Source: Escherichia coli (GTDB lineage Bacteria > Pseudomonadota > Gammaproteobacteria > Enterobacterales > Enterobacteriaceae). From it: a DNA stretch of 64,000 nucleotides. The DNA is taken from assembly GCF_030013205.1 (NCBI RefSeq), contig NZ_CP122648.1. The stretch is one strand, 5' to 3'. The first letter of the stretch is position 1. Each line of letters begins with the position of its first letter. A model generated the notes under the pieces. It was not told the DNA's origin, did not search any database, and worked only from the letters and a program-made list of their open reading frames with translations. The position numbers were made by a program, and so were the translations under genes. Positions 18,172 through 58,150 of this stretch are shown here, piece by piece.

Positions 18172-19383
18172 TTATTCGGTTGCCAGCCAGCTTAACGGGA
18201 TTGCCGCGTACATCGCGGCACAGGTCACCAGGTGAGATTTCCAGGTTTTTTCGTTAGGTGCATGCGCTTCAGGTTCTTTACCTGGGCCAAAGCCGATCAC
18301 CGGAATGCCGTGACGGCCCATAATAGATACGCCGTTAGTTGAGAAGGTCCACTTATCAACAACCGGCGCTTTGCCAAACAGACCTTCGTAGGCATTCACC
18401 AGTGCTTTAACGGTGAAGTGATCTTCTTCCACTTTCCAGGTCGGGAAGTAGCATTCGGTTGGGTAAACCAGGCCAGTCCAGGACGGACGGTCGTAGTTGT
18501 ACATAGAAACAACCGCGTTAGCTTTCTGTACTGCAGGCAGGGCGCGGATTTCGTCCAGCGCGCCTTCCCAGGTTTCGCCCCAGGTCAGACGGCGGTCAAT
18601 AGAGACGGCGCAGCTATCTGCTACAGCGCAACGGCTTGGGGATGTGAAGAAGATTTCAGAAACGGTGAGGGTGCCTTTGCCGAGGAATTCGTCATAACCC
18701 AGACGTTGGGAGAGTTCTTGTAATTCGCCAAGAATCGGACCCATTTTGAAAATGGCGTTGTCACCGCGTTCTGGTGCAGAACCGTGGCAGCTAACACCCT
18801 GAACATCAATACGAATTTCCATACGACCGCGCTGACCACGGTATACCTGGCAGTCGGTTGGTTCGGTACTGACCACAAATTCCGGGCGAATGCCGGATTG
18901 TTCAATAATGTACTGCCAGCACAGGCCGTCGCAGTCTTCTTCCTGCACAGTACCGGTAACCAGCAGGGTATATTCATCTTCCAGACCGAGGTCTTTAATG
19001 ATTTTACCGGCATAAACCATAGATGCCATGCCGCCTTCCTGGTCGGAAGTACCGCGACCACCGATCAGCTCATCAGTTTCCATGCCTTCGTACGGATCGA
19101 AGTCCCAGTTTTTGATGTTGCCAATGCCGACGGTATCGATATGAGCGTCCATTGCCACCAGACGCGGGCCGTGGCCGATATAACCGAGAACGTTGCCCAT
19201 CGGGGCGATTTCAACTTTATCGAAGCCGACTTTTTCCATCTCTTCTTTAATACGATGTACTACGCGTTTTTCGTCGCAGCTTTCACTGGGAATAGCAACC
19301 ATGTCGCGCAGGAAGCGAGTCATGTCCGCCTGGTAATCTTTTGCTTTTTCAAGAATCAGTTTGAATGGAATATTCTTAGCCAT
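18172..19383 (-). CDS. ygeY: M20-family peptidase / amidohydrolase
   Basis: 403-aa ORF; ArgE/DapE-like metal-binding residues. Confidence 0.88.
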
Positions 19384-28247: not shown

Positions 28248-29003
28248 ATTTTGAGTGCGGGACGCCTGAATAAAAAATCTCTGGGTATCGTGATGTTGTT
28301 ATCGGTTGGACTGCTTTTGGCGGGCTGCTCGGGTAGCAAATCATCCGATACAGGAACGTATTCCGGCTCCGTTTACACCGTGAAACGGGGGGATACGCTA
28401 TATCGTATTTCGCGCACCACGGGAACCAGCGTAAAAGAGCTGGCGCGACTGAACGGCATTTCCCCCCCTTACACCATTGAAGTTGGTCAGAAACTAAAAC
28501 TGGGTGGGGCGAAAAGTAGCAGTACACGTAAATCAACCGCCAAATCAACGACCAAAACCGCATCGGTTACACCGTCATCAGCAGTACCGAAATCTTCCTG
28601 GCCGCCAGTAGGGCAACGTTGTTGGTTATGGCCAACGACAGGGAAAGTTATCATGCCGTATTCGACAGCTGATGGCGGCAATAAAGGGATTGATATCTCA
28701 GCTCCACGGGGTACACCTATTTACGCCGCGGGTGCAGGAAAGGTGGTGTATGTGGGCAACCAGCTGCGTGGCTACGGTAATCTCATCATGATTAAACACA
28801 GTGAAGATTACATTACGGCTTACGCCCATAATGACACGATGCTGGTAAATAATGGGCAAAGCGTGAAGGCTGGGCAAAAAATCGCCACTATGGGGAGCAC
28901 TGATGCGGCATCGGTTCGCCTGCATTTCCAGATTCGTTACCGTGCAACGGCAATTGATCCGCTACGTTACTTGCCGCCTCAGGGCAGCAAGCCAAAATGC
29001 TGA
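28248..29003 (+). CDS. ygeR: LysM-domain, M23 peptidase-like lipoprotein
   Basis: TTG start after a GAGGA RBS; lipobox LLLAGCSG; LysM (YTVKRGDTLYRISR) plus C-terminal M23-like domain; 251 aa. Confidence 0.85.
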   Translation: MLSAGRLNKKSLGIVMLLSVGLLLAGCSGSKSSDTGTYSGSVYTVKRGDTLYRISRTTGTSVKELARLNGISPPYTIEVGQKLKLGGAKSSSTRKSTAKSTTKTASVTPSSAVPKSSWPPVGQRCWLWPTTGKVIMPYSTADGGNKGIDISAPRGTPIYAAGAGKVVYVGNQLRGYGNLIMIKHSEDYITAYAHNDTMLVNNGQSVKAGQKIATMGSTDAASVRLHFQIRYRATAIDPLRYLPPQGSKPKC

Positions 29004-29036
29004 TGGCGAATTAATCAGCAGTCAGCAGCGCGGCAC

Positions 29037-29064
29037 TTGCTAAGGAGAGCGTAAGGTTTATAAT
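29037..29064 (+). promoter_or_regulatory. putative sigma70 promoter of glyU
   Basis: TTGCTA (29037-29042), 16-bp spacer, TATAAT (29059-29064), about 27 bp upstream of the mature tRNA 5' end. Confidence 0.5.
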
Positions 29065-29091
29065 GCCTTACGCATCTCGAAGCGGGCGTAG

Positions 29092-29165
29092 TTCAATGGT
29101 AGAACGAGAGCTTCCCAAGCTCTATACGAGGGTTCGATTCCCTTCGCCCGCTCCAAACAAACATT
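29092..29165 (+). tRNA. glyU: tRNA-Gly (anticodon CCC)
   Basis: 74-nt cloverleaf GCGGGCG...CGCCCGCUCCA; anticodon stem AGAGC/GCUCU around loop UUCCCAA; T-arm GGUUCGAUUCC. Confidence 0.95.
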
Positions 29166-29319
29166 TCTCAACGTCTACTAAAGTCCATCAAACCCACGAA
29201 TATCAAGCCTTCCAGCCATTTTCATAGTTTATTAACGTCTACTCACAACTACCAGAATCTACACACAGAAGTGTATAGTAATGCGTATAGGACAAAATTT
29301 ATTTTTTGGAGCTATACAC

Positions 29320-30534
29320 ATGCTGCTTTCAGACCTTGCCATCAGGCGCGCGAAGCCGAAAGAAAAGGCTTATACACTCAATGACGGTAACGGGCTTTCG
29401 TTGCTCATTGAGCCGAACGGTTCGAAAGGGTGGCGACTGCGCTACAGGTTTGCAGGAAAGCCCAAAATGTTGTCGTTGGGTGTGTACCCTGATGTGTCTC
29501 TGTCTGATGCCAGGGCGGCAAGGGATGAGGCTAAAAGGCTTCTTGCTGGTGGTATAAATCCAAGTGAGGCCAGAAAAGCCCAAAAGCGAGAACAGGCGAG
29601 CAAATTTGGCAATACTTTTGAGGGTATTGCTCGCGAATGGTACGAAAAGCGGATCGACAGGTGGTCATCGTCATACGCCGAGGAAATGATCGAGACGTTT
29701 GAAAAAGATGTTTTTCCGTACATTGGCGGTAGGCCGATCGCAGAAATTAAGCCGATGGAATTGCTGGCGGTTCTTTCCCGTCTTAATGACCGTGGTGCGA
29801 CTGAAAAATTGCGTAAGGTTCGCCAGCGATGCGGCGAGGTGTTCCGGTACGCAATCATCACCGGACGCGCCGAATATAATCCAGCCCCTGACCTGGTGAG
29901 CGCATTTGCTCCACATAAAAAAGAGCATTACGCCTATTTGAAGGCCGACGAACTGCCGGAATTTTTCCGCGTTTTTAATACGTACACCGGAAGCCAGATC
30001 GTCAAACTGGCAATGCGGCTATTAATTCTGACAGGTGTCAGACCCGGGGAATTACGGCAGGCAGAATGGCAGGAGATCGATTTTGATAATCGTTTGTGGG
30101 AAGTGCCTAAAGAACGAATGAAGATGCGCCGTCCGCATTGTGTGCCATTACCAGAACAGGCGATAAAAATACTGGAGCAGTTAAAAAACATGACAGGCCA
30201 GTATCAGTTTATTTTCCCCGGTCGTATTCGCCACAGTAAGCCAATGAGTGAAATGGCGATGAATGTGCTCATTCGTCGTATCGGCTATGCCGGGCGCGTT
30301 ACTGGTCATGGATTCCGGCACACCATGAGCACCATTTTGCATGAGCAGGGCTATAACACTGCGTGGATAGAAACGCAGCTCGCGCACGTCGATAAAAACT
30401 CAATTCGTGGCACGTACAACCATGCGCAATATCTGGACGGGCGGCGGGAAATGCTTCAGTGGTACGCTGATTATATGGATTCGCTCGAGCATGGCGGAAA
30501 TGTGGTGCATGGTGAGTTCGGAAAATGCGGGTGA
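29320..30534 (+). CDS. int: tyrosine integrase, P4 family
   Basis: ORF track 29281..30534; start taken at MLLSDLAIRRAKPK (29320); catalytic HGFRHT and RGTYNHA motifs. Confidence 0.9.
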   Translation: MLLSDLAIRRAKPKEKAYTLNDGNGLSLLIEPNGSKGWRLRYRFAGKPKMLSLGVYPDVSLSDARAARDEAKRLLAGGINPSEARKAQKREQASKFGNTFEGIAREWYEKRIDRWSSSYAEEMIETFEKDVFPYIGGRPIAEIKPMELLAVLSRLNDRGATEKLRKVRQRCGEVFRYAIITGRAEYNPAPDLVSAFAPHKKEHYAYLKADELPEFFRVFNTYTGSQIVKLAMRLLILTGVRPGELRQAEWQEIDFDNRLWEVPKERMKMRRPHCVPLPEQAIKILEQLKNMTGQYQFIFPGRIRHSKPMSEMAMNVLIRRIGYAGRVTGHGFRHTMSTILHEQGYNTAWIETQLAHVDKNSIRGTYNHAQYLDGRREMLQWYADYMDSLEHGGNVVHGEFGKCG

Positions 30535-30656
30535 CTGGTTGAGTATACAGTAGTAGACTTTGAGCGACGAAAGAAAAGGCTGTGTCTAGGGTCGCTCCCG
30601 AAAATCCGTACACCTCGACGGACTGGTACAGCCACTACAGTAGAGGACGCTGAGGT

Positions 30657-31460
30657 GTGCGTATGATTGATATTCATGCCGAATTAAACGAATACAAAAA
30701 AGATTTTATTTCTTTACGTGAATTTCTTGAGGTCGTGCTTAAGGTCGCTGGTGATGATTATGATGTTTCAGATGTCATAACTTGGATACTCAGGAGAATA
30801 AGCGGAGAACATATCCGCCTGTACACAGTAAATGAATTTAAGCTGTTGGAATCTTTTTGTAACCCGTATCGGGATGAATTTGATAATGATGTTCTTTATA
30901 GAAATCTGAATGCGGTTCGGAAACGTGGTTGTTTACCTGGTGAGAGGGATGAAAATGGTTTTCTGGTGTCCGGTTATTGGGAAGATCCCGAATTTGAGAA
31001 CATTGGATTTATAAGGGGTGAAATTTTCGCAATTTTTCCCGATGTCCTTGACGCGTTAACGAAGCTGGAAGGCGCTAACTCTTCTGAAAATGACGAGGCA
31101 CAAGGACGCGATATTGAAAAGAAAGAGTTGCGTACAGAGGATGATTTATTATCCCAAATCGCAATGCTGGAAAAAGAAAACGCAGAGTTAAGGGCAAGGA
31201 TAGAGCAGTTAGAGCAAGAGCGCCCGATACACTTATATAAATACTGGGATAAAGACCCATTAGCTAAGGCTATTGAGATTAGAAACAGAGAGTGGGCCAA
31301 TTACGATCCAGAAAATGATTTTGCCACCAGGGGAAATCAAGAAGCGATAACCAGGGAGCTTAAGCAGTGGGGGGCAAGTAATGCACTTGCAACGCTCATA
31401 GAGAGGACTGCCTGCCCTATTAACCGAGACAACAGCCAAAAGAACGCAAAGCCGGATTAA
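30657..31460 (+). CDS. hypothetical protein, 267 aa, C-terminal coiled coil; orphan cargo gene between int and alpA
   Basis: Complete ORF; predicted coiled coil (LSQIAMLEKENAELRARIEQLEQE); no catalytic motif recognised. Confidence 0.7.
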   Translation: MRMIDIHAELNEYKKDFISLREFLEVVLKVAGDDYDVSDVITWILRRISGEHIRLYTVNEFKLLESFCNPYRDEFDNDVLYRNLNAVRKRGCLPGERDENGFLVSGYWEDPEFENIGFIRGEIFAIFPDVLDALTKLEGANSSENDEAQGRDIEKKELRTEDDLLSQIAMLEKENAELRARIEQLEQERPIHLYKYWDKDPLAKAIEIRNREWANYDPENDFATRGNQEAITRELKQWGASNALATLIERTACPINRDNSQKNAKPD

Positions 31461-31475
31461 CGCACCATACCGCAT

Positions 31476-31619
31476 ACCCTGAGGGTGATTTACTGTTACC
31501 CTGAGGGTATTTTTTTATCTTCCCCGTCAATTTTACCATCACCCTTAGGGTAGATTTCCTCCCGATTACCATCACCCTTAGGGTAGATTTCCTTCCGGTA
31601 ACCATTAGGCCTGAGGGTA
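31476..31619. repeat. five copies of an imperfect palindrome CCCT-n-AGGGTA upstream of alpA
   Basis: Copies at 31476-31486, 31498-31508, 31541-31552, 31574-31585, 31609-31619; a 25-bp unit ACCATCACCCTTAGGGTAGATTTCC occurs twice. Confidence 0.7.
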
Positions 31620-31687
31620 TGAAAATATTCGTTATTTCTGTGCCATGATTACCTCGTCAAATTGAGTAGACGTTATGAGGTAAATAT

Positions 31688-31885
31688 ATGTCAAATACGC
31701 TTATTCGTTTAACAGAAGTTCAGCGTAGAACTGGATATAGCAAGGCATGGATTTATCGCCTTATGGGGCAAGGTAAATTTCCTGCATCAGTTAAAATTGG
31801 CTCGCGAGCTATTGCTTTCGTTGAGAGTGAAATTGACGAGTGGATTAATCAGCGTATTGCGGAATCACGCGGAACAGCTACCTGA
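31688..31885 (+). CDS. alpA: AlpA-family phage transcriptional regulator (MerR-like HTH)
   Basis: 65-aa ORF; VQRRTGYSKAWIYRLM...FPASVKIGSRAIAFVESEIDEWI is the AlpA signature. Confidence 0.85.
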   Translation: MSNTLIRLTEVQRRTGYSKAWIYRLMGQGKFPASVKIGSRAIAFVESEIDEWINQRIAESRGTAT

Positions 31886-31962
31886 TTAAATGGCTACGGG
31901 GCTATTGCCCCCAGCTATCCACCAGCAAATAAAAGTAACTTAATTCGATAGCAGGAGTTTTT

Positions 31963-32763
31963 ATGAAATTTCCAAAAACGCCCGTACAGGGGCGGGGCTT
32001 CGTTCGGCCTGAAAACCAGAATCTGCAAAATTTCGGCGAAATTATCCCGATTATTTCCGGCGTTATTGGCGGGAGTGAAACCACTATTGTTAGCGCCAGA
32101 GCGTTACATAAGGCGTTAGGTGTAGGGCGCGTTTTCCGTTCGTGGATCAAGGGGCGCATTGAAGAATATGGGTTCACGGAAGGCGTGGATTATAAGGTTG
32201 TTGAATATTTGAGCCGACCCGATCCGGTGAGCGCAAAATCTCGCCAGCAAACCGCTCTTGAGTACATCATCACAGTGAACATGGCGAAAGAACTGGCGAT
32301 GGTCGAACGTACCGAACAGGGCCGCGCCGTTCGCCAGTACTTTATCAAATGCGAGGAGGAGCTACACAAGGTTGCGCCTGTTCGTTCCGCAGCGTTACGC
32401 CGGGAACTGAAAGCCCGTATCACAGTTGCCAGCTACTTTAAGCCAATGTGTGCCGCGCTGGAGGCGTACCGGGCTGAACTGGGTAAAAACACACTCCAGC
32501 ACCACTACACCACGGAAGCGAACATGCTGGCGCGTATCGTGCTGGGTGGCATGACTGCAAAACAGTGGGCACTGGCGAACGGCATTACAGGCGAACCACG
32601 CGACCACATGAGCACGTTGCAGCTTGAGCACCTTTCTTACCTTGAGCAGAGCAATATCACGCTGATTGAGTTAGGCCAGGACTACCACCAGCGGAAGGCT
32701 GAATTAATTCGTCTTTCGCAGCGTTGGTTAGCCCGTCGCATGGAGGAAAACAGCCATGTGTAA
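31963..32763 (+). CDS. phage antirepressor-like protein (Bro-N/AntA-type N-terminus)
   Basis: 266-aa ORF; the N-terminal region resembles phage antirepressor proteins. Confidence 0.6.
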   Translation: MKFPKTPVQGRGFVRPENQNLQNFGEIIPIISGVIGGSETTIVSARALHKALGVGRVFRSWIKGRIEEYGFTEGVDYKVVEYLSRPDPVSAKSRQQTALEYIITVNMAKELAMVERTEQGRAVRQYFIKCEEELHKVAPVRSAALRRELKARITVASYFKPMCAALEAYRAELGKNTLQHHYTTEANMLARIVLGGMTAKQWALANGITGEPRDHMSTLQLEHLSYLEQSNITLIELGQDYHQRKAELIRLSQRWLARRMEENSHV

Positions 32764-33237
32764 CGCTCTGACCGTTACAAAAAGAAAAAGCGCCCCGTTG
32801 CCGGAGCGCCTTTGTGAACGAATAGCCTACTGCGCCATATTGCTTACTGTCTACGAGGCAGATTATAGCGTTGTGGTCGCACAGAGTGAAGGCGCTGATC
32901 ACCGTTACTACAGCACACCAGAAATGCAGAATATTTTGCTGCAAAATGTCGTTGGCCACGCTGTCCGGAAAGCAAAAAATTTTGCTGGTGGCGTGACTGA
33001 TACGATTTTTTCTGGTTGCTCGGTGCTGATCAACTTAACCTGGACTTATGTACAACATTGCAACTATTCCTACTTTAAGCTGAATGTAACTTTACCTATA
33101 TCATTAGAGGTATGGTCGCGCTTGACCTCAATTTCACCATTTTGTAGCCCTGCTACAAAAAAATATAAAAGTGTCAATGTTGCTGCAATCAGTAACCATT
33201 TTCCAAAAATATACATTCTTGATTTTACCCTTAATCG

Positions 33238-33411
33238 TCAACCTTTTGGCACGATGCCTCGCTGTTGTAATTCTTTGCGGAGCACTCGTTTAATCCAGGT
33301 AGCTAATGAGGTGTCGCCGTCTGCTTTGGCTGCCTCCTCAAGTTGTGCCCTAAATTCTTCTGGTAGCCGCATTTGGTATGGTGGCGATCGTTTTTCTAAT
33401 GGTGTTGACAT
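33238..33411 (-). CDS. Arc/MetJ-type ribbon-helix-helix DNA-binding protein (57 aa)
   Basis: Manual translation MSTPLEKRSPPYQMRLPEEFRAQLEEAAKADGDTSLATWIKRVLRKELQQRGIVPKG; below the 60-aa ORF-track cutoff; start abuts a palindromic operator. Confidence 0.6.
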   Translation of the reverse strand: MSTPLEKRSPPYQMRLPEEFRAQLEEAAKADGDTSLATWIKRVLRKELQQRGIVPKG

Positions 33412-33451
33412 GGTAATTACCCATAATTACTATAGTTACACGGTAATTACC
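33412..33451. promoter_or_regulatory. putative operator: two perfect GGTAATTACC palindromes 30 bp apart
   Basis: Palindromes at 33412-33421 and 33442-33451 in the divergent region between the Arc-like gene and the 33548 gene. Confidence 0.55.
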
Positions 33452-33547
33452 ATTGTACTTACCATTGCAAAAAAAACAACGCCCCGGACTGCGGGAACAG
33501 TACCAGGGCGTCTAACCACCAACGATAGCGAAAGTATCGAGGTAGCT

Positions 33548-33751
33548 ATGATAAATCATACCACACACCCGCAAGGGCGGGACTCGCACAACCTGAATAA
33601 ATACATCTGGCGTTTTATCGCCCTGAGCACGGCACAACCGCGCGTGATTCACATCGAGGCCACCAGCGAACAGGAAGCCCGCCAGCAATCTCCTGATGGC
33701 TGCGTGATGGTATTCGCTGCCCGTATTCGCCAGGAGGTACGCCATGATTAA
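33548..33751 (+). CDS. hypothetical small protein (67 aa)
   Basis: ATG at 33548 with a GAGG RBS; 8-nt overlap with the next ORF. Confidence 0.55.
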   Translation: MINHTTHPQGRDSHNLNKYIWRFIALSTAQPRVIHIEATSEQEARQQSPDGCVMVFAARIRQEVRHD

Positions 33752-34109
33752 CCTGTCACTTACCGACCTTCACCGCATTCAGTTTGACGAGAAATTTACC
33801 GGGCAGCTACTGGTCCATGTGGAGAACGGGCGCATAGTGCGTAATTACCACCTGCCGGATGGTGCAATTGCCGGAAGCGTTGAAGCATTGCTGGAAATGG
33901 CAGAACGTGCGCGACTGATTAAGCCGTTAACGTGCCATCACGATGATGATCTGCATTTTACCGGACGCATGGTGAGCCATTATGAAAACGGCGTTGAGGT
34001 ATCCCGCGAACGTCTGCGTGATGATTGCTGTTTCGGCACATTGCCGGAATTTATCGAATTGCTGACCGATTGCGGTTATCAGGTAATTCAGAGCAAGACG
34101 CAGGAGTAA
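33744..34109 (+). CDS. hypothetical protein (121 aa)
   Basis: ORF track; operon context upstream of primase. Confidence 0.6.
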   Translation: MINLSLTDLHRIQFDEKFTGQLLVHVENGRIVRNYHLPDGAIAGSVEALLEMAERARLIKPLTCHHDDDLHFTGRMVSHYENGVEVSRERLRDDCCFGTLPEFIELLTDCGYQVIQSKTQE

Positions 34110-34115
34110 AAAACC

Positions 34116-34406
34116 ATGAAAAAGAAAAATTCTGGCTTTACTGCCAGCGGCCCCGCTCGGCCTGAAATCAAACACGGCGATATTTACCGCGACACCAGAC
34201 GTGGGGGACGAGTGGTTATTCGTCACGTTACGCCAGGCAATATCACCTACCGCCGTGAGGCTTACGAATATGACTGCGTAATGCCGCGCCGTCAGTTTGA
34301 GCGTGATTTTATTCTGGTGGAAAACAAACAACAGGCGGTGGCGAGACGTGCAGCCACGAATATTAAAAAAATCCGGGCAATGTTGGTTGCGGGAGGTAAG
34401 AAGTGA
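34116..34406 (+). CDS. hypothetical protein (96 aa)
   Basis: ORF track; 4-nt overlap with the primase start. Confidence 0.6.
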   Translation: MKKKNSGFTASGPARPEIKHGDIYRDTRRGGRVVIRHVTPGNITYRREAYEYDCVMPRRQFERDFILVENKQQAVARRAATNIKKIRAMLVAGGKK

Positions 34407-36208
34407 AAAACGCCCCGAATTTAAAATATCAGCCGAAGGATAAATTCACTGAGGTAATCATTTTTGCCGGGACGGATGCTTACGCCCATGCTCAACACTG
34501 GATTGAAAGCGAAGGACGAAAACACGGCGATAACGTACCACCTGTTTACCTGGGGCCGAAGCAACTGGCAGACCTGGCGAACATCCGCATTATCGACGAA
34601 GGGCGCCGCTTTGCGCGTGTCTATATCGCAGGGGAGATCGAACCAATTCAGATCAACGCTATCGCCGAAAAGCTGGCACTGGCTGGCGTACAGGAGGCGA
34701 AATTATACAAAGGCATCACCGACCGGGAGCCGGAGAACTGGCGCGATTACCTGCAACGGATCCGCGAACAGGCAGAGCGCGGGGAAGTTTCAGCGATGAA
34801 ATTAGTCACAAAAAATAGTGACCTACCCAGGCCAGCACTAAATCAGATGGGAGCCAGCCAGAGAGGGGAAGTATTGCTTGAATATTATGGAAGGGCACTG
34901 GCTATAAATGACGATTCTGATGTAGTTCACCATTACAACGGAATTGTCTGGGAGCCTGTATCTGATAAGGAACTCCAGCGGTCTATGGCGAAGATTTTTA
35001 TTGATGCTGGAATCAGTTATTCGCAAAACGCCATTAAATTTGCCGTAGACACAATGAAATTGAGCCTGCCTGTTATGGGCGGGGCAGACAGGAATCTTAT
35101 TGGATTCAGTAACGGGGTATTTGATACCCGGACAGGAAATTTTCGGGAGCATAACAAAAATGACTGGTTGTTAAATGCCAGTGAATTACCGTTCAGCCCA
35201 CCAGCAGAGGGGGAAACGCTGGCAACACATGCGCCGAATTTCTGGAAGTGGCTGCGTCGTTCGGTGGCAAATAACGATCGTAAAGCGGATCGCGTACTGG
35301 CGGCATTATTCATGGTACTGGCGAACCGGTACGACTGGCAGTTATTCCTTGAGGTAACGGGGCCGGGCGGAAGCGGTAAAAGTGTGATGGCGGAGATTTG
35401 TACCATGCTGGCGGGTAAGGCCAATACAGTATCGGCGAGCATGAAGGCGCTGGAAGACGCGAGGGAACGAGCGTTAGTGGTGGGATATTCTCTGATTATC
35501 ATGCCTGACATGACCCGCTACGCAGGTGATGGTGCTGGGATTAAGGCCATTACAGGCGGTGACAAGGTGGCAATCGACCCGAAACATAAAGCCCCCTACT
35601 CCACACGTATTCCGGCGGTAGTGCTGGCAGTAAACAATAACGCCATGTCATTCAGTGATCGCAGTGGAGGGATCTCGCGTCGTAGGGTGATATTTAATTT
35701 CTCTGAGGTCGTACCGGAGAACGAACGCGATCCCATGCTGGTGGAAAAAATAGAAGGCGAACTGGCGGTAGTGATTCGCCATTTGCTTACACGATTTGCC
35801 GACCAGGACGAAGCGAAAAGACTACTTTATGAGCAGCAAAAATCAGAAGAAGCACTGTTAATAAAGCGTGAAGGTGATTCGCTGGTGGACTTCTGCGGTT
35901 ATCTGATGTCGTTGGTTAAATGTGAGGGGATGATAGTAGGTAATGCAGAAATAGTGCCATTTAGCCCGAGGCGATATCTGTATCATGCTTATTTGGCTTA
36001 TATGTCTGCGCATGGTCTGGGAAAACCGGTATCACTGACACGCTTTGGTACAGATATGCCAGGGGCAATGGCTGAGTACGGAAAGGAGTACAAGCGGGCT
36101 AAATGCACTAAAGGTCCAGATAAAGGGCGAACGATCACAAATGTTCTGTTAGATAAAGATGCTGATGGATGGTTACCAGCAGCGGCAGGCATTAACGACA
36201 GAACATGA
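34403..36208 (+). CDS. phage/satellite-type DNA primase-helicase (P4 alpha / D5-like)
   Basis: 601-aa ORF; Walker A GPGGSGKS; followed directly by an iteron array. Confidence 0.8.
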   Translation: MKNAPNLKYQPKDKFTEVIIFAGTDAYAHAQHWIESEGRKHGDNVPPVYLGPKQLADLANIRIIDEGRRFARVYIAGEIEPIQINAIAEKLALAGVQEAKLYKGITDREPENWRDYLQRIREQAERGEVSAMKLVTKNSDLPRPALNQMGASQRGEVLLEYYGRALAINDDSDVVHHYNGIVWEPVSDKELQRSMAKIFIDAGISYSQNAIKFAVDTMKLSLPVMGGADRNLIGFSNGVFDTRTGNFREHNKNDWLLNASELPFSPPAEGETLATHAPNFWKWLRRSVANNDRKADRVLAALFMVLANRYDWQLFLEVTGPGGSGKSVMAEICTMLAGKANTVSASMKALEDARERALVVGYSLIIMPDMTRYAGDGAGIKAITGGDKVAIDPKHKAPYSTRIPAVVLAVNNNAMSFSDRSGGISRRRVIFNFSEVVPENERDPMLVEKIEGELAVVIRHLLTRFADQDEAKRLLYEQQKSEEALLIKREGDSLVDFCGYLMSLVKCEGMIVGNAEIVPFSPRRYLYHAYLAYMSAHGLGKPVSLTRFGTDMPGAMAEYGKEYKRAKCTKGPDKGRTITNVLLDKDADGWLPAAAGINDRT

Positions 36209-36236
36209 TACGAAATTTATAAGTTGAAACTTAAAA

Positions 36237-36572
36237 GTAGACGGTTGGTAGACAGATACACTTAACCCTCTACCAACCATCTACTAATTAATGTTTTGAA
36301 TTATATAGGTATTTTTAATGTGGTAGAGAGGTGGGCAGTTATTTCTATATTCCTAAACCACGGGGGGTATATAAAAAAACAGATAGTTAAGGGTTCATTT
36401 TTTAAATTTCTCTTTTAACTGTCTACACTGTCTACCATTTAGTAAAAATCATTAATTATCAATGTATTAATGCGGTAGACAGTTAGTAGACAGTTTGCAG
36501 ATTGTTTTTTTGTTATGAGTTAATAACATTAAATAAATCAATCAATTATATCGGTAGACAGTTGGTAGACAG
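36237..36572. repeat. putative replication origin: paired GGTAGACAG iterons flanking an AT-rich segment
   Basis: GTAGACGGTTGGTAGACAG (36237-36255), inverted copy (36268-36284), TGGTAGAGAGGTGGGCAG (36321-36338), inverted pair (36419-36436), GCGGTAGACAGTTAGTAGACAG (36473-36494), TCGGTAGACAGTTGGTAGACAG (36551-36572). Confidence 0.7.
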
Positions 36573-36580
36573 TTGTAACG

Positions 36581-37123
36581 ATGGGGCAAAGCATGACTAA
36601 GCTGACCATTAACAGAAAACCGAAAGGCATTTATGGCACGCCGCAGAAAACGACGCAGGCGGCACAGGAGCAGGATAAAACCACGTCGGCGCATAAAGTG
36701 ATGCCCGGTAACCAGAAAGCGCAGCAGAAGCCCACAGGGGCGACACCGTGGCGGCATATGACCAAGCGCCAGCGCAAAAACCGCAGGCGCATTAACCGCC
36801 TCACTGAGTTGTGGCCTGAATTATTCAGCCGGGAAGCACCGAAGCCGCTTAAGGTGGGGATATTCGACGACCTGATGCAGGATCTCGCCGTCAGGGGGCT
36901 GGCATTCGGTCCAGGGGCATTGCGTGCGACGCTGGCATCTTATGCACAGTGTCCGCGCTATTACCGCGCCTTAATGGCTGGTGGGGTACGCTACGACCTG
37001 AAAGGCCAGCCGTGCGGCGAGGTGACACCACAGGAACAACAGGACGCAGAAACGCGGCTGGTGGCGCTGAATGAGAAGCGCAAACGTCAGCGCCGGGTAG
37101 CAAAGGAGAAAACAGGCGCATGA
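36581..37123 (+). CDS. ProQ/FinO-domain RNA-binding protein
   Basis: PLKVGIFDDL...LRATLASYAQCPRYYRAL...YDLKGQPCGEV parallels ProQ (PLKIGIFQDL...LRSALRLYTSSWRYL...VDLDGNPCGEL). Confidence 0.75.
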   Translation: MGQSMTKLTINRKPKGIYGTPQKTTQAAQEQDKTTSAHKVMPGNQKAQQKPTGATPWRHMTKRQRKNRRRINRLTELWPELFSREAPKPLKVGIFDDLMQDLAVRGLAFGPGALRATLASYAQCPRYYRALMAGGVRYDLKGQPCGEVTPQEQQDAETRLVALNEKRKRQRRVAKEKTGA

Positions 37124-51407: not shown

Positions 51408-52436
51408 ATGATTATCGGAAATGAAGTGGTTGATCTTGCTCCACTGTTCGAATTAAACGACTCACGCAATTACCTACTGTCTACTCTGGATTTTACTGAT
51501 CCTGTGCCTGTAGAAAGTCACAAAGTGGCTGTTTCCCAGCTTATCGAGAGCAATGAATCTCTGTTCAACCATCCTACAAGCCGTTTTAGCTCTGAGCATA
51601 ACGTTACTAAGCGTGAGAACGGGGAAGAATGGCTGATTGAAATCCCTTACTTCCTGCGTGAAGACCTGATCAAACCGCAGGACGTGCAAGGCAAACGCAA
51701 AGCCGGAAGCTCTATTGAAGAAACACTGCCGGATCTGTATGCGGAATATATCGCTACACACAATGTTGCATTCCAGCGCACTAAAGAAAGCATCCTCGCG
51801 GCTTCTCTGTTCTCTGGCAAGACACATACCCCGAAAACTGACGATGTTCTGATCGACTACAGCACTCTGTTCGGTGTGTCTCCAATGACTGCAACCGTTG
51901 ACGCATCCAGCACCAACACAATGACCGTATTCAAGCAATTTGATCAGATGCATACGGATATGATTGCTAAGGCACAAAGCCAGGCTGCAACCATTGAGCG
52001 TGTTGTTGTGTTCTGTAAACCTGCGGCATTCAACGCTATTCGTTACAGCGTTGGCATGGTTAATGCGTTCCAGTATGCAAGCCCTGTAGACGATGCAAAC
52101 GTGGTGTTTAATGTGCGTTCTCTGCTGCCTGGTGTAACTACTTTCACCATTCCAGGAACTAACATTGACCTGATCAAAGTGACTGATCCGCTGCTGCTGG
52201 CACATATGACCGCTGACGCTGTAGCTATTCCTAAACTTGCTAAGGGGGCAGGTGTTTACCAAGCTATTTTTGGTGCGCCTTCCAGTTCATTCGATCTGCT
52301 GTCTCAAGGCGCTAAAGAGTATTACAGCTATGCTTTCGAATCGAATCGCGGCGACGCAGTGCACGTAGTGACCGAGAATAGCTCGCTTGTGGTTAACCAC
52401 GGTGTTGGCTTCTCTGTGCAGATCACAGTAGCGTAA
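51408..52436 (+). CDS. putative phage major capsid protein, lambda E-like
   Basis: 342 aa (lambda gpE is 341 aa); C-terminus ...GVGFSVQITVA resembles the gpE C-terminus ...DEFVSVQLA; N-terminal DLAPLFEL region. Confidence 0.5.
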   Translation: MIIGNEVVDLAPLFELNDSRNYLLSTLDFTDPVPVESHKVAVSQLIESNESLFNHPTSRFSSEHNVTKRENGEEWLIEIPYFLREDLIKPQDVQGKRKAGSSIEETLPDLYAEYIATHNVAFQRTKESILAASLFSGKTHTPKTDDVLIDYSTLFGVSPMTATVDASSTNTMTVFKQFDQMHTDMIAKAQSQAATIERVVVFCKPAAFNAIRYSVGMVNAFQYASPVDDANVVFNVRSLLPGVTTFTIPGTNIDLIKVTDPLLLAHMTADAVAIPKLAKGAGVYQAIFGAPSSSFDLLSQGAKEYYSYAFESNRGDAVHVVTENSSLVVNHGVGFSVQITVA

Positions 52437-56821: not shown

Positions 56822-58042
56822 TTACGCCTTAAAATCAATATTTAATTCATATCTTACTAATTCTACATATTCAGCTAATTCTGGAATGCTTGCCCCTTGT
56901 GAGTAGGTGCGAAAGGCTTCTGTTTTGGCTTTTTGCTCAGTGTGGCCCGTAATACTGCCGATCCTGGTCTCGCTAACTCCGGCACGATCAAGACAAGTGA
57001 TAAACATCCCGCGCAAGCTGTGAAAGCATTGTCTATCTGTAGCGATTGGCAAGACGCTACGACGTAAACGTGAGAATGCTTGAGAATAGAACGGGCCTTT
57101 CTTGCCGTCGATTCTTTTTACTTTGTTCGAGTGAGGGAACAAATATTCACCATAATTATGATTTAAATATTCATCGACAATAATCGATAGTCTCGAATGT
57201 ATCGGAACGTGTCTGATCCCTGCTTTAGTCTTACTCTTGCTGATATAAAAACAGCGTATTCCTTCCACAGTTACAACCTCTGACTTTTTCAGGCTTGCCA
57301 GTTCGTCTAATCTGCATCCTGAAAACAAGCCCATTAAAATAATATTTCTGATCTCCGGCTCCGCTGCATCAAGTAGCTTTTGCATTTGTTCAGGTGTAAA
57401 CGGTTGATAACTCTCGATTGTGCGACGTGCTTCGAGGTTATGACCGTGAAAAGGGTTACTGTCTGGTATTCCGTCATAACGGCGTTTAGCAAATTCATAG
57501 AGCGATCCTAAGCATGTAAGCCAGTTTTGACGAGATTGATCGGCTGCTCCTCGTTGCTTCTGGTCATCTAAGAATACTGTTACAAGCCGTCTGCCTATTT
57601 TCTCAATATGAATATCATCTTTCTGAATGCTTTGTAAAAATAGCTCAACGGCCCTTGCTGATTTCTGTAGTGTTGAGTATGAACGACGCTCTCTGTAGCA
57701 TTCGGCGTATTCGTCACGTATTAAGCATAGGGAAGGCGATGCATAACCGCGTTTTACGGCTCTTTGCGTGTTTTTATTGGCCCTTGCCTCTGAATGTAAG
57801 AATTCAATAGCTTTTTGTAACCTCCTTTCGGGGTTATCAGGATTATGTTTCCGCTTTAGTTCCTCCCATTCTAATAACAGATGGTTTCTGAATCTTCTCG
57901 CCTCATTCAGATCTCGTGTAGATGTGCTTTTTCTCCACAACTTGTAAGGGTAAAGATGGCGTAAGTATTTAGGAACAAAAATCTGAAACATCCAGATCCC
58001 ATCTTTTCTCTTAAATAAGTATGCTTGGCTCTTGATCGACAC
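56822..58042 (-). CDS. tyrosine recombinase / phage integrase
   Basis: 406-aa ORF adjacent to att copy 3; C-terminal HSLRG and tyrosine-containing region; different family from the island 1 integrase. Confidence 0.75.
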   Translation of the reverse strand: MSIKSQAYLFKRKDGIWMFQIFVPKYLRHLYPYKLWRKSTSTRDLNEARRFRNHLLLEWEELKRKHNPDNPERRLQKAIEFLHSEARANKNTQRAVKRGYASPSLCLIRDEYAECYRERRSYSTLQKSARAVELFLQSIQKDDIHIEKIGRRLVTVFLDDQKQRGAADQSRQNWLTCLGSLYEFAKRRYDGIPDSNPFHGHNLEARRTIESYQPFTPEQMQKLLDAAEPEIRNIILMGLFSGCRLDELASLKKSEVVTVEGIRCFYISKSKTKAGIRHVPIHSRLSIIVDEYLNHNYGEYLFPHSNKVKRIDGKKGPFYSQAFSRLRRSVLPIATDRQCFHSLRGMFITCLDRAGVSETRIGSITGHTEQKAKTEAFRTYSQGASIPELAEYVELVRYELNIDFKA

Positions 58043-58127: not shown

Positions 58128-58150
58128 TCGATTCCCTTCGCCCGCTCCAA
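58128..58150 (+). repeat. att direct repeat (23-bp copy of the glyU 3' end) at the distal island boundary
   Basis: TCGATTCCCTTCGCCCGCTCCAA is identical to 29144-29166. Confidence 0.85.

What the first reader, a model, noticed from the sequence alone, without database searches (positions are those of the whole stretch)
31476..31619. Cluster of CCCT-n-AGGGTA palindromes upstream of alpA
Five copies of a short imperfect palindrome, including a 25-bp unit repeated twice, occupy the 230-bp gap between the orphan cargo gene and alpA. The second copy is followed by a T-run and may terminate upstream transcription; the others look like operator sites for an island regulator.
Basis: seen in the sequence. 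Interest (0 to 1): 0.4.

Follow-up and report, generated by a model that had tools for sequence, protein, structure and literature searches.

The report
Operator array controlling a satellite's alpA switch
The five short palindromes are real, conserved protein-docking sites in front of alpA, the master switch gene of a phage-parasitic island, and the neighbouring "cargo" gene is probably the unknown regulator that reads them, which gives a testable lead on how helper phages wake such islands.

Summary
Five TACCCTnAGGGTA-type palindromes lie at 31475-31619 (centres 31481, 31503, 31546, 31579, 31613), against 0.03 expected by chance and none elsewhere in the 64 kb.

The setting is a PICI-type phage satellite at tRNA-Gly: int, gene X, palindromes, alpA, antA, primase.

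In diverged relatives the spacers are scrambled, but the palindromes keep fixed distances from the alpA start (about 75, 109, 151, 174, 206 bp). These spacings are near-multiples of a helical turn, as expected of a phased operator array at the alpA promoter.

Nearly identical AlpA proteins sit behind quite different repeat motifs. The palindromes track perfectly (38/38 vs 0/41 loci) with a roughly 70-aa C-terminal domain of gene X, which has a variable N-terminus, a leucine zipper and that domain, and no known family. The N-terminal domains shuffle across operator types.

Best reading: X dimers bind the array and gate PalpA. Whether they activate or repress is unresolved. DNA binding by X is inferred, not shown.

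In this lineage, sites 1 and 2 also fold into a strong intrinsic terminator (-24.8 kcal/mol plus U7).

The parts
29082..29155 (+). tRNA-Gly(CCC). Its 3' end (29134-29156) is attL of the island, and the 23-bp direct repeat recurs at 58128-58150 (attR).
29281..30534 (+). Tyrosine integrase of the island, with Arm-DNA-bind_3, Phage_int_M and Phage_integrase domains.
30579..30646 (+). Rfam int-alpA RNA motif (RF02996). It ends at the ribosome-binding site of gene X, so it is the leader of the int-alpA slot gene and not part of the palindrome cluster.
30657..31460 (+). RefSeq start is 30663, giving 265 aa. It has a variable N-terminal domain with winged-helix-like topology, a leucine zipper (about res 159-186, Asn at an 'a' position) and a conserved roughly 70-aa C-terminal domain (...DDPLxLAIxIRNxEW...AxAIExVACPIxR). 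It is the proposed reader of the palindromes.
31475..31487 (.). Palindrome site 1, TACCCTGAGGGTG. It corresponds to family position O4 (about 174 bp from the ATG before the 33-bp duplication).
31497..31509 (.). Palindrome site 2, TACCCTGAGGGTA (perfect). Family position O3.
31474..31516 (+). Predicted intrinsic terminator for int-X transcription. Sites 1 and 2 pair as the two arms of a hairpin (31474-31510) followed by T7 (31510-31516).
   Evidence: (I3)
31533..31598 (+). Two tandem 33-bp units, each carrying one palindrome. E. coli genomes carry 1, 2 or 3 copies of the unit.
31540..31552 (.). Palindrome site 3, CACCCTTAGGGTA. A duplicate of O2.
31573..31585 (.). Palindrome site 4, CACCCTTAGGGTA. 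Family position O2, 109 bp from the ATG.
31607..31619 (.). Site 5, AGGCCTGAGGGTA. Family position O1, 75 bp from the ATG. Its right half is invariant across the family and it abuts the core promoter, with its centre at about -43 from the inferred start.
31641..31649 (+). Inferred extended -10 element of PalpA, TGcCATGAT (TGCCATCAT in relatives). No recognisable -35. The transcription start is inferred near 31656.
   Evidence: inference; no TSS data
31649..31683 (+). alpA leader hairpin (UUACCUCGU / AUGAGGUAA) that buries the Shine-Dalgarno GAGG (31677-31680). Relatives keep it, some with entirely different stem sequences.
31688..31885 (+). alpA (65 aa, Phage_AlpA/HTH_17), the master activator/excisionase-type gene of Gram-negative PICIs.

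Best explanation
The five palindromes form a phased operator array that makes up the control region of the alpA promoter of a PICI-type phage satellite. Each 13-bp site (consensus TACCCTnAGGGTA) is probably bound by a dimer of protein X, the product of the gene immediately upstream. In this model X's leucine zipper holds two copies of a novel roughly 70-aa C-terminal domain over the two ACCCT half-sites. The sites lie 2, 3 or 4 helical turns apart, so bound dimers would sit on one face of the DNA and could cooperate. The promoter-proximal site is centred about 43 bp upstream of the inferred start of a promoter that has an extended -10 and no -35. Occupancy of the array would therefore set whether RNA polymerase fires alpA. 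X's interchangeable N-terminal domain is the likely input, for example a helper-phage signal. The direction is not resolved. The geometry and the weak core promoter favour activation or sensing; repression is not excluded. In this E. coli lineage the two distal sites also fold in the int-X transcript into a strong intrinsic terminator. Together with a Shine-Dalgarno-sequestering leader hairpin, this would insulate alpA from read-through. Shown: the sites, their conservation, their phasing and their association with X. Inferred: binding by X, the promoter and start-site positions, and the sign of regulation.
For: The sites are non-random and unique to this gap.

Phylogenetic footprint. In 18 non-redundant relatives the sites recur at 74-76, 107-109, 149-153, 173-175 and 205-207 bp from the alpA ATG, while the spacers diverge beyond alignment.

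The spacings of 22-23, 32, 33-34 and 42-44 bp are near-integral helical turns.

Association with X. A strong hit to the X C-terminal domain together with at least two palindromes was found in 38/38 loci. Palindromes were found in 0/30 loci without the domain, and in 0/11 loci with a distant 'LRP' subfamily that carries GGTGG/CCACC repeats instead. Metagenomic members with only about 30% identity in this domain still sit about 180 bp upstream of an alpA-like gene, with 4-5 ACCCTnAGGGT sites in between.

The N-terminal domains of X are shared across operator types (E = 1e-14 to 1e-27), whereas the last roughly 100 aa predict the repeat motif in five independent classes.

AlpA identity does not separate the classes. 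AlpA that is 97% identical is found without palindromes. The downstream genes AntA, the RHH protein, DUF4222 and primase do not track with the palindromes.

Of 47 two-site clusters in 2.9 M viral contigs, 30 have the domain and alpA adjacent, and 5 more are cut at a locus end or lack one of the two hits.

No canonical sigma-70 promoter was found in 31300-32000, which fits an activator-dependent promoter.

Literature. AlpA autoactivates and helper phages induce alpA by an unknown route (PMC6092414). A variable gene of unknown function between int and alpA is required for PICMI induction (PMC10803314).

Terminator fold: dG -24.8 kcal/mol, z = -5.5, followed by U7.

Against: The C-terminal domain is roughly charge-neutral, which is unusual for a DNA reader (my count from the sequence).

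The domain is physically adjacent to the sites, so linkage alone would give some co-inheritance.

PICIs without an X gene (EcCICFT073, EcCIMP1) are still phage-inducible, so X is not universally required.

The promoter and start site are inferred from sequence only.

The T-run is missing in several relatives, so the terminator role is not general.
Confidence: 0.55

Rival explanations
1. A factor from outside the island, either a helper-phage protein or a host transcription factor, binds the palindromes and switches on alpA. X would then be an unrelated accessory or defence gene that travels with the sites because it lies next to them.
For: Helper phages induce alpA in PICIs that lack any X gene. 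X has no recognisable DNA-binding fold. The slot is flanked by conserved sequence, the int-alpA RNA motif and the alpA leader, as expected of a cassette-exchange hotspot. ACCCTnAGGGT tandem clusters also occur in unrelated viral contigs.
Against: Adjacency does not easily explain why the domain and the sites stay paired down to about 30% protein identity while the spacers are randomised. It also does not explain why five different C-terminal domain classes each have their own motif while N-terminal domains shuffle freely. Several operator types coexist in E. coli, so a single host factor cannot serve them all.
Confidence: 0.22
2. AlpA itself binds the palindromes, either for its known positive autoregulation or as an excisionase-type architectural protein.
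For: AlpA activates its own promoter in EcCICFT073 and EcCIMP1. The sites are immediately upstream of alpA. EcCIMP1 has one AGGGTAgctcTACCCT element upstream of alpA.
Against: AlpA proteins 97% identical to this one (L032-L036), with the same HTH residues, sit behind regions with no palindromes and a different motif. AlpA identity ranges overlap between loci with and without palindromes. The cluster is 2.3 kb from attL, too far for recombination arm sites. Xis-type proteins usually read direct repeats, not compact dyads (general knowledge).
Confidence: 0.08
3. The repeats act only at the RNA level or have no function. They would be terminator hairpins multiplied by slippage or recombination, with no protein reader.
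For: Sites 1 and 2 form a strong terminator-like hairpin. The 33-bp unit varies between 1 and 3 copies among E. coli genomes, which shows ongoing recombination.
Against: Sites 3-5 have no T-run. The T-run after site 2 is not conserved in relatives. Site positions relative to the alpA start, and their helical phasing, are conserved across genera. The promoter-proximal site keeps only one half, which makes no sense for a hairpin.
Confidence: 0.08
4. The cluster is a replication origin (iterons), a packaging site, or a member of a genome-wide extragenic palindrome family (REP-like).
For: Repeated short motifs in an intergenic region of a mobile element.
Against: It is not next to the primase/replication gene, which lies 2.8 kb downstream. 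There is no other copy in the 64 kb. It is position-locked to the alpA promoter.
Confidence: 0.03

Closest known systems
Stl-operator module of SaPIs and other Gram-positive PICIs (master repressor that phage proteins inactivate)
   Same: A satellite-encoded regulator with modular, swappable sensing parts sits next to the operators that gate the induction operon. The helper phage supplies the signal (role described in PMC6092414).
   Different: Stl is divergently transcribed and has a recognisable HTH. X is co-directional with int and alpA, has no detectable HTH in the conserved domain, and may activate rather than repress. No homology was found.
AlpA autoregulatory circuit of E. coli PICIs (EcCICFT073, EcCIMP1)
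   Same: Same kind of island, same gene order and the same target gene. This AlpA is 81% identical to the EcCIMP1 AlpA. alpA is the induction switch there.
   Different: Those two islands have no gene between int and alpA and lack the palindrome array. The cis-elements of PalpA are not described in the papers I could search.
iolg/icg genes between int and alpA in Vibrio PICMIs
   Same: A variable gene of unknown function in the same slot. It is constitutively expressed with int and is needed for phage-induced excision (PMC10803314).
   Different: Homology to X was not tested. The authors propose a role in the excision complex, not promoter control. No operator array is reported.
bZIP-type recognition (GCN4 on the AP-1 site)
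   Same: A parallel leucine zipper with Asn at an 'a' position holds two DNA-reading units over a compact dyad with a single central base pair (general knowledge; zipper read from the sequence).
   Different: In X the reading module would be a folded four-helix domain on the C-terminal side of the zipper, not a basic helix on the N-terminal side. This is an analogy only.
IS10/IS50 fold-back inhibition of outside transcripts
   Same: A leader hairpin hides the ribosome-binding site only in transcripts that start upstream of the element's own promoter (general knowledge). Here the inferred alpA start falls inside the 5' arm of the hairpin.
   Different: The gene and element are different, and the start site has not been mapped.

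Membership tests
Gram-negative PICI (EcCI-type phage satellite) | Integrase at one end next to a specific att site, with alpA co-oriented just downstream | tested here: met
   tRNA-Gly attL 29134-29156; int 29281-30534; alpA 31688-31885 on the same strand
Gram-negative PICI (EcCI-type phage satellite) | Primase/replication gene downstream, with the accessory set (Icd-like, DUF4222, ProQ/FinO, PerC) typical of E. coli PICIs | tested here: met
   D5_N/DUF5906/Pox_D5 primase at 34403-36208; DUF4222; ProQ. The 100%-identical module in strain F9792 is annotated with the same gene set
Gram-negative PICI (EcCI-type phage satellite) | Induction, packaging and transfer by a helper phage | not testable with these tools
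   Needs experiments. The 29-kb att-to-att span with a second integrase (56822-58042) suggests a composite element
Transcription-factor operator array | Sites conserved in sequence and position relative to a promoter while flanking DNA diverges | tested here: met
Transcription-factor operator array | Specific binding by a defined protein | not testable with these tools
   Only co-variation with the X C-terminal domain is available
Rho-independent terminator (sites 1+2) | Stable GC-rich hairpin immediately followed by a U-tract, downstream of a stop codon | tested here: met
   Hairpin 31474-31510, dG -24.8 kcal/mol, z = -5.5, T7 at 31510-31516, 14 nt after the X stop codon. Termination activity was not tested and the T-run is not conserved in relatives
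AlpA/Xis-type (recombination directionality factor) binding sites | Sites co-occur with the cognate AlpA regardless of neighbouring genes and lie near the att core | tested here: not met
   Near-identical AlpA is found without the sites. The cluster is 2.3 kb from attL
Rfam int-alpA RNA (RF02996) | Match to the covariance model at or above the gathering score | tested here: not met
   The model matches 30579-30646, upstream of X, and not the palindrome cluster
Dispersed extragenic palindromes (REP/BIME-like) | Many copies scattered through the chromosome | tested here: not met
   No copy outside 31475-31619 in the 64 kb
Replication-origin iterons | Repeats adjacent to the initiator gene and bound by it | tested here: not met
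   The primase is 2.8 kb downstream, and the sites track with X and the alpA start rather than with the primase
Known DNA-binding domain families (HTH, wHTH, RHH and others) for the X C-terminal domain | Significant sequence or fold match | tested here: inconclusive

The most novel reading that the evidence does not exclude
The gene slot between int and alpA in Gram-negative phage satellites holds a previously unrecognised class of modular master regulators. Each would combine an interchangeable N-terminal sensor, a dimerising zipper and an operator-specific C-terminal head, and each class would have its own operator array built into a portable alpA promoter cassette. That cassette would be flanked by the int-alpA RNA motif on one side and the alpA leader hairpin on the other. 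On this reading X and its palindromes are one such cassette, and they are the missing link by which a helper phage switches on alpA.
Probability: 0.35. Interest if true: 0.8.

Novelty: new variant of a known kind. Interest (0 to 1): 0.6.

Why it matters
How helper phages induce Gram-negative PICIs is an acknowledged open question. AlpA is known to be necessary and sufficient for induction, but what turns alpA on is not known (PMC6092414, PMC10803314).

This locus offers a concrete handle on that question. It has a defined five-site operator array at PalpA and a candidate cognate regulator, and the modular build of that regulator suggests which half reads DNA and which half senses the phage.

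If the model is right, helper specificity could be predicted from sequence, and satellite-based delivery tools could be re-targeted. It would also mean that many 'hypothetical cargo' genes next to integrases are misfiled. If it is wrong, the cluster is still a clean, conserved cis-element for dissecting alpA control.

Tried and rejected
Family searches for X gave nothing useful: Pfam, PHROGs, NCBIfam and PADLOC, Pfam on 82 C-terminal domains, and a PDB profile search.

Two AF2 models were made and three fold searches run. No informative match came back, and the AFDB library was unavailable.

Formal covariation counting on the alpA leader was dropped. In the alignable subset the 3' arm is almost invariant, and my shuffle control for SD pairing was uninformative, with 70% paired by chance. 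The support for the hairpin is therefore qualitative: several unrelated stems all bury the SD.

I looked for the palindromes or their half-sites near attL/attR and other island promoters and found none.

I tested AntA, the Arc-like YlcI protein, DUF4222 and the primase as alternative readers. None tracks with the sites.

I checked the two experimentally studied PICIs. Both lack X and the array, so their reporter data cannot be carried over directly.

Five literature searches for a described PalpA operator or regulator found nothing.

A repeat finder on a minus-strand reference failed.

Full report
**1. The observation**

The region 31461-31687 is the 227-bp gap between an ORF ending at 31460 and alpA (31688-31885; Pfam Phage_AlpA, E = 2.4e-19).

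The pattern CCCTNAGGGTA occurs five times (strand-specific) at four positions between 31475 and 31585. Dinucleotide shuffles predict 0.03 occurrences, and there are none elsewhere in the 64 kb. A fifth, half-degenerate site (AGGCCTGAGGGTA, 31607-31619) shares the CCTNAGG core.

The site centres are 31481, 31503, 31546, 31579 and 31613, spaced 22, 43, 33 and 34 bp. The 'unit repeated twice' is a 33-bp tandem duplication (31533-31565 and 31566-31598).

**2. Setting**

The window is E. coli chromosome. The order is ygeR/actS, tRNA-Gly(CCC), then an integrase (29281-30534), a 265-267-aa ORF that I call X (30657/30663-31460), the palindromes, alpA, an AntA-type gene, a small divergent Arc-like gene, DUF4222 and a D5-type primase.

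The 3' end of the tRNA is repeated at 58128-58150. Between those repeats lie ProQ/FinO, a capsid-E gene and a second integrase. The left part has the gene set of an E. coli PICI-type satellite, and the whole is probably composite. A 100%-identical module sits at another site in strain F9792 with the usual PICI annotation. The 321-bp region is found in 147 of 5426 complete E. coli genomes.

**3. The sites are under selection as DNA sites**

Close relatives differ mainly in copy number. They carry one, two or three 33-bp units, or a fusion of sites 1 and 2, which shows recombination among the repeats.

The informative comparisons are the diverged ones. In E. coli islands with a 67%-identical X gene (L008, L009), the spacers differ but the palindromes stay 23, 43 and 34 bp apart.

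I then examined 80 IMG/VR loci encoding AlpA at 77-100% identity. In 18 non-redundant loci carrying the palindromes, the sites fall at 74-76, 107-109, 149-153, 173-175 and 205-207 bp from the alpA ATG. In a MAFFT alignment the conserved columns are the palindromes, the promoter-proximal stretch and the leader, while the spacers are not conserved.

I call these positions O1 to O5. The window carries O4, O3, a duplicated O2, O2 and O1. The intervals (about 34, 43, 22-23 and 32 bp) are close to 3, 4, 2 and 3 helical turns, so all sites face the same side of the helix. O1 always keeps only its right half (C[CT]TGAGGGTATGA) and abuts the core promoter.

**4. The promoter (inference)**

The consensus scan finds no canonical sigma-70 promoter in 31300-32000.

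The only conserved promoter-like element in the family is TGCCATCAT (TGCCATGAT in the window, 31641-31649), an extended -10 with no usable -35. With a start near 31656, O1 is centred near -43, O2 near -77, the duplicate near -110, O3 near -153 and O4 near -175.

A dyad at about -42 next to a promoter without a -35 is the classic class II activator geometry (general knowledge). A repressor is not excluded.

**5. Who reads the sites**

*AlpA is unlikely.* Loci L032-L036 encode AlpA that is 97% identical to this one, with the same HTH residues, yet have no palindromes. AlpA identity ranges overlap between loci with and without the sites.

*Other repeats fill the same place.* Loci without the palindromes carry different repeated motifs there:
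- ACTTCCA(A)A repeats
- TACCGCAATTGCGGTA
- TTGCATGCA
- GGTGG/CCACC inverted repeats
- ACCGGAA/TTCCGGT

.

*The motif type tracks the upstream gene.* What changes with the motif is the gene upstream of it. All 38 loci with at least two palindromes have a strong hit (E < 1e-15) to the C-terminal roughly 70 aa of X. None of the 30 loci without that domain has the palindromes. Eleven loci with a distant 'LRP' variant of the domain have the GGTGG/CCACC type instead. Clustering the last 100 aa of the slot gene predicts the motif type in five independent classes.

*N-terminal domains shuffle.* The N-terminal domains of X cross operator types. The N-termini of L037, L062 and L071 (palindrome type) match those of L051, L061 and L053 (ACTTCCA type) at E = 1e-14 to 1e-27.

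*Distant members keep the arrangement.* Metagenomic members of the domain family with about 30% identity (P0100, P0121) still lie about 180 bp upstream of an alpA-like gene, with four or five ACCCTnAGGGT sites in between.

*Downstream genes do not track.* AntA, the Arc-like protein, DUF4222 and the primase show no association with the sites.

*Collection-wide scan.* A scan of 2.9 M viral contigs for two exact sites 10-36 bp apart returned 47 stretches. Thirty have the X domain and alpA adjacent, and five more are cut at a locus end or lack one of the two hits. Twelve are unrelated tandem repeats in viruses of 30-70% GC.

**6. What X is**

X and its homologues are all annotated as hypothetical proteins, with no Pfam, NCBIfam, PADLOC or informative PHROG match.

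The alignment shows three parts:
- a variable N-terminus;
- a heptad leucine zipper (I-L-N-L-I-L at the a/d positions, with Asn at an 'a' position, as in parallel dimers);
- the conserved C-terminal domain ...DDPLxLAIxIRNxEWxxYD...AxAIExVACPIxR.

An exhaustive profile search found only 127 representatives among 1.84 billion proteins, always with the domain at the C-terminus of proteins of 64-515 aa.

The domain is about charge-neutral. DNA binding by X is therefore an inference from co-variation and architecture, not from fold. A zipper holding two heads over a compact dyad with one central base pair resembles bZIP geometry, but this is only an analogy.

**7. Terminator and insulation**

Because each site is a dyad, neighbouring sites are also inverted repeats of each other. 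In RNA, 31474-31510 folds into a hairpin with two 13-nt arms (dG -24.8 kcal/mol; shuffles -10.9 ± 2.5; z = -5.5), followed by U7. This is a good intrinsic terminator 14 nt after the X stop codon.

The T-run is present in some E. coli variants (L011) and absent in L008, L009, L045 and L066. Termination is therefore a lineage-specific second use of O4/O3.

Downstream, the alpA leader forms a hairpin (31649-31657 with 31675-31683) that buries the Shine-Dalgarno sequence. Relatives keep such a hairpin even where the stem sequence is completely different: GCTCCTGTAG/CTACAGGAGC, GTCTCCCGT/ACGGGAGAC, CTTCTTAGTATTC/GAATACTAAGGAG and CACCTT/AAGGTG.

The inferred start lies inside the 5' arm. Transcripts initiated at PalpA would then have a free ribosome-binding site, while read-through transcripts would not. 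This resembles IS10 fold-back inhibition and is an inference.

**8. Relation to what is known**

[quoted passage not shown] In Vibrio PICMIs a variable gene of unknown function in the same slot is required for phage-induced excision, and the authors ask how the phage activates alpA (PMC10803314).

Rfam's int-alpA RNA motif maps to 30579-30646. It ends at X's ribosome-binding site and precedes whatever gene fills the slot in 11 of 20 related loci scanned.

I found no paper describing the palindromes or X. The held library is incomplete, so this is absence in what I could search.

**9. Verdict**

The cluster is a genuine, conserved cis-regulatory array at the alpA promoter of a phage satellite (about 0.85). 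The best candidate reader is the neighbouring protein X (about 0.6).

The sign of regulation is open. I lean towards activation or sensing because of the -43 geometry, the weak core promoter and the PICMI phenotype.

The main rival is an external phage or host factor, with X merely linked to the sites (0.22).

It is a new variant of a known kind: a regulator-operator switch of a mobile element, built from an uncharacterised protein family. It is moderately to highly interesting because it makes an open question directly testable.

Noticed in passing
window 30579-30646: Rfam int-alpA RNA motif (RF02996, 45.5 bits). It lies between int and X and ends at X's ribosome-binding site. In related loci it precedes whichever gene occupies the int-alpA slot, across operator types, so it looks like a shared leader for the slot gene rather than for alpA.
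   Followed up: partly
window 31649-31683: alpA leader hairpin that buries the Shine-Dalgarno sequence. Relatives keep it with unrelated stem sequences. The inferred alpA start lies inside the 5' arm, which would free the RBS only in promoter-initiated transcripts.
   Followed up: partly
window 31666-31674 (TAGACGTTA) and the same motif in L032, L037, L038, L040 and others: The hairpin loop sequence (A)TAGACGTTA is conserved across different operator types and even when the stem changes. It is the only element shared by all alpA upstream regions, which makes it a candidate AlpA autoregulatory site. Not tested.
   Followed up: no
window 31533-31598; L002-L006: The 33-bp unit carrying one palindrome is present in 1, 2 or 3 copies in different E. 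coli genomes, and one genome has sites 1 and 2 fused. This is natural variation in operator number.
   Followed up: yes
L038, L041, L051, L059, L073, L077 and others, 60-260 bp upstream of alpA: Other islands carry different repeat sets in the same place (ACTTCCA, TACCGCAATTGCGGTA, TTGCATGCA, GGTGG/CCACC, ACCGGAA/TTCCGGT, TGGAATATTCCA). Each is paired with a different C-terminal domain class of the upstream gene. All of these proteins are uncharacterised, and two are DUF6387.
   Followed up: partly
window 29134-29156 and 58128-58150; 51408-52436; 56822-58042 (-): The tRNA-Gly direct repeats are 29 kb apart and enclose a second integrase and a capsid-E gene. The island is probably two elements in tandem or a PICI with captured phage genes.
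   Followed up: partly
L007 (EcCIMP1) 19025-19043, about 190 bp upstream of alpA: EcCIMP1 lacks gene X and the array but has one element with the same hexamers in the opposite order, AGGGTAgctcTACCCT. This may be coincidence or a relic.
   Followed up: no
L141 (IMGVR_UViG_3300037313_000197), whole locus; also L116, L138, L142: Unrelated viral contigs carry ACCCTnAGGGT in tandem repeats, or at 21 positions across the first 8 kb of a 14-kb locus (L141), without alpA or the X domain. These may be phage terminators or promoters that happen to use the same dyad.
   Followed up: no
window 33238-33411 (-): Small divergent Arc/YlcI-type ribbon-helix-helix gene between antA and the Icd-like/primase operon. 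It is a plausible second regulator of the island and is not associated with the palindromes.
   Followed up: partly
L007, L038, L051, L066, L072 (about 1-2 kb downstream of alpA): Related islands carry P4-type C4 antisense RNA, its a1/b1 targets and isrK. None of these was detected in window 29000-37000 at E <= 1.
   Followed up: no
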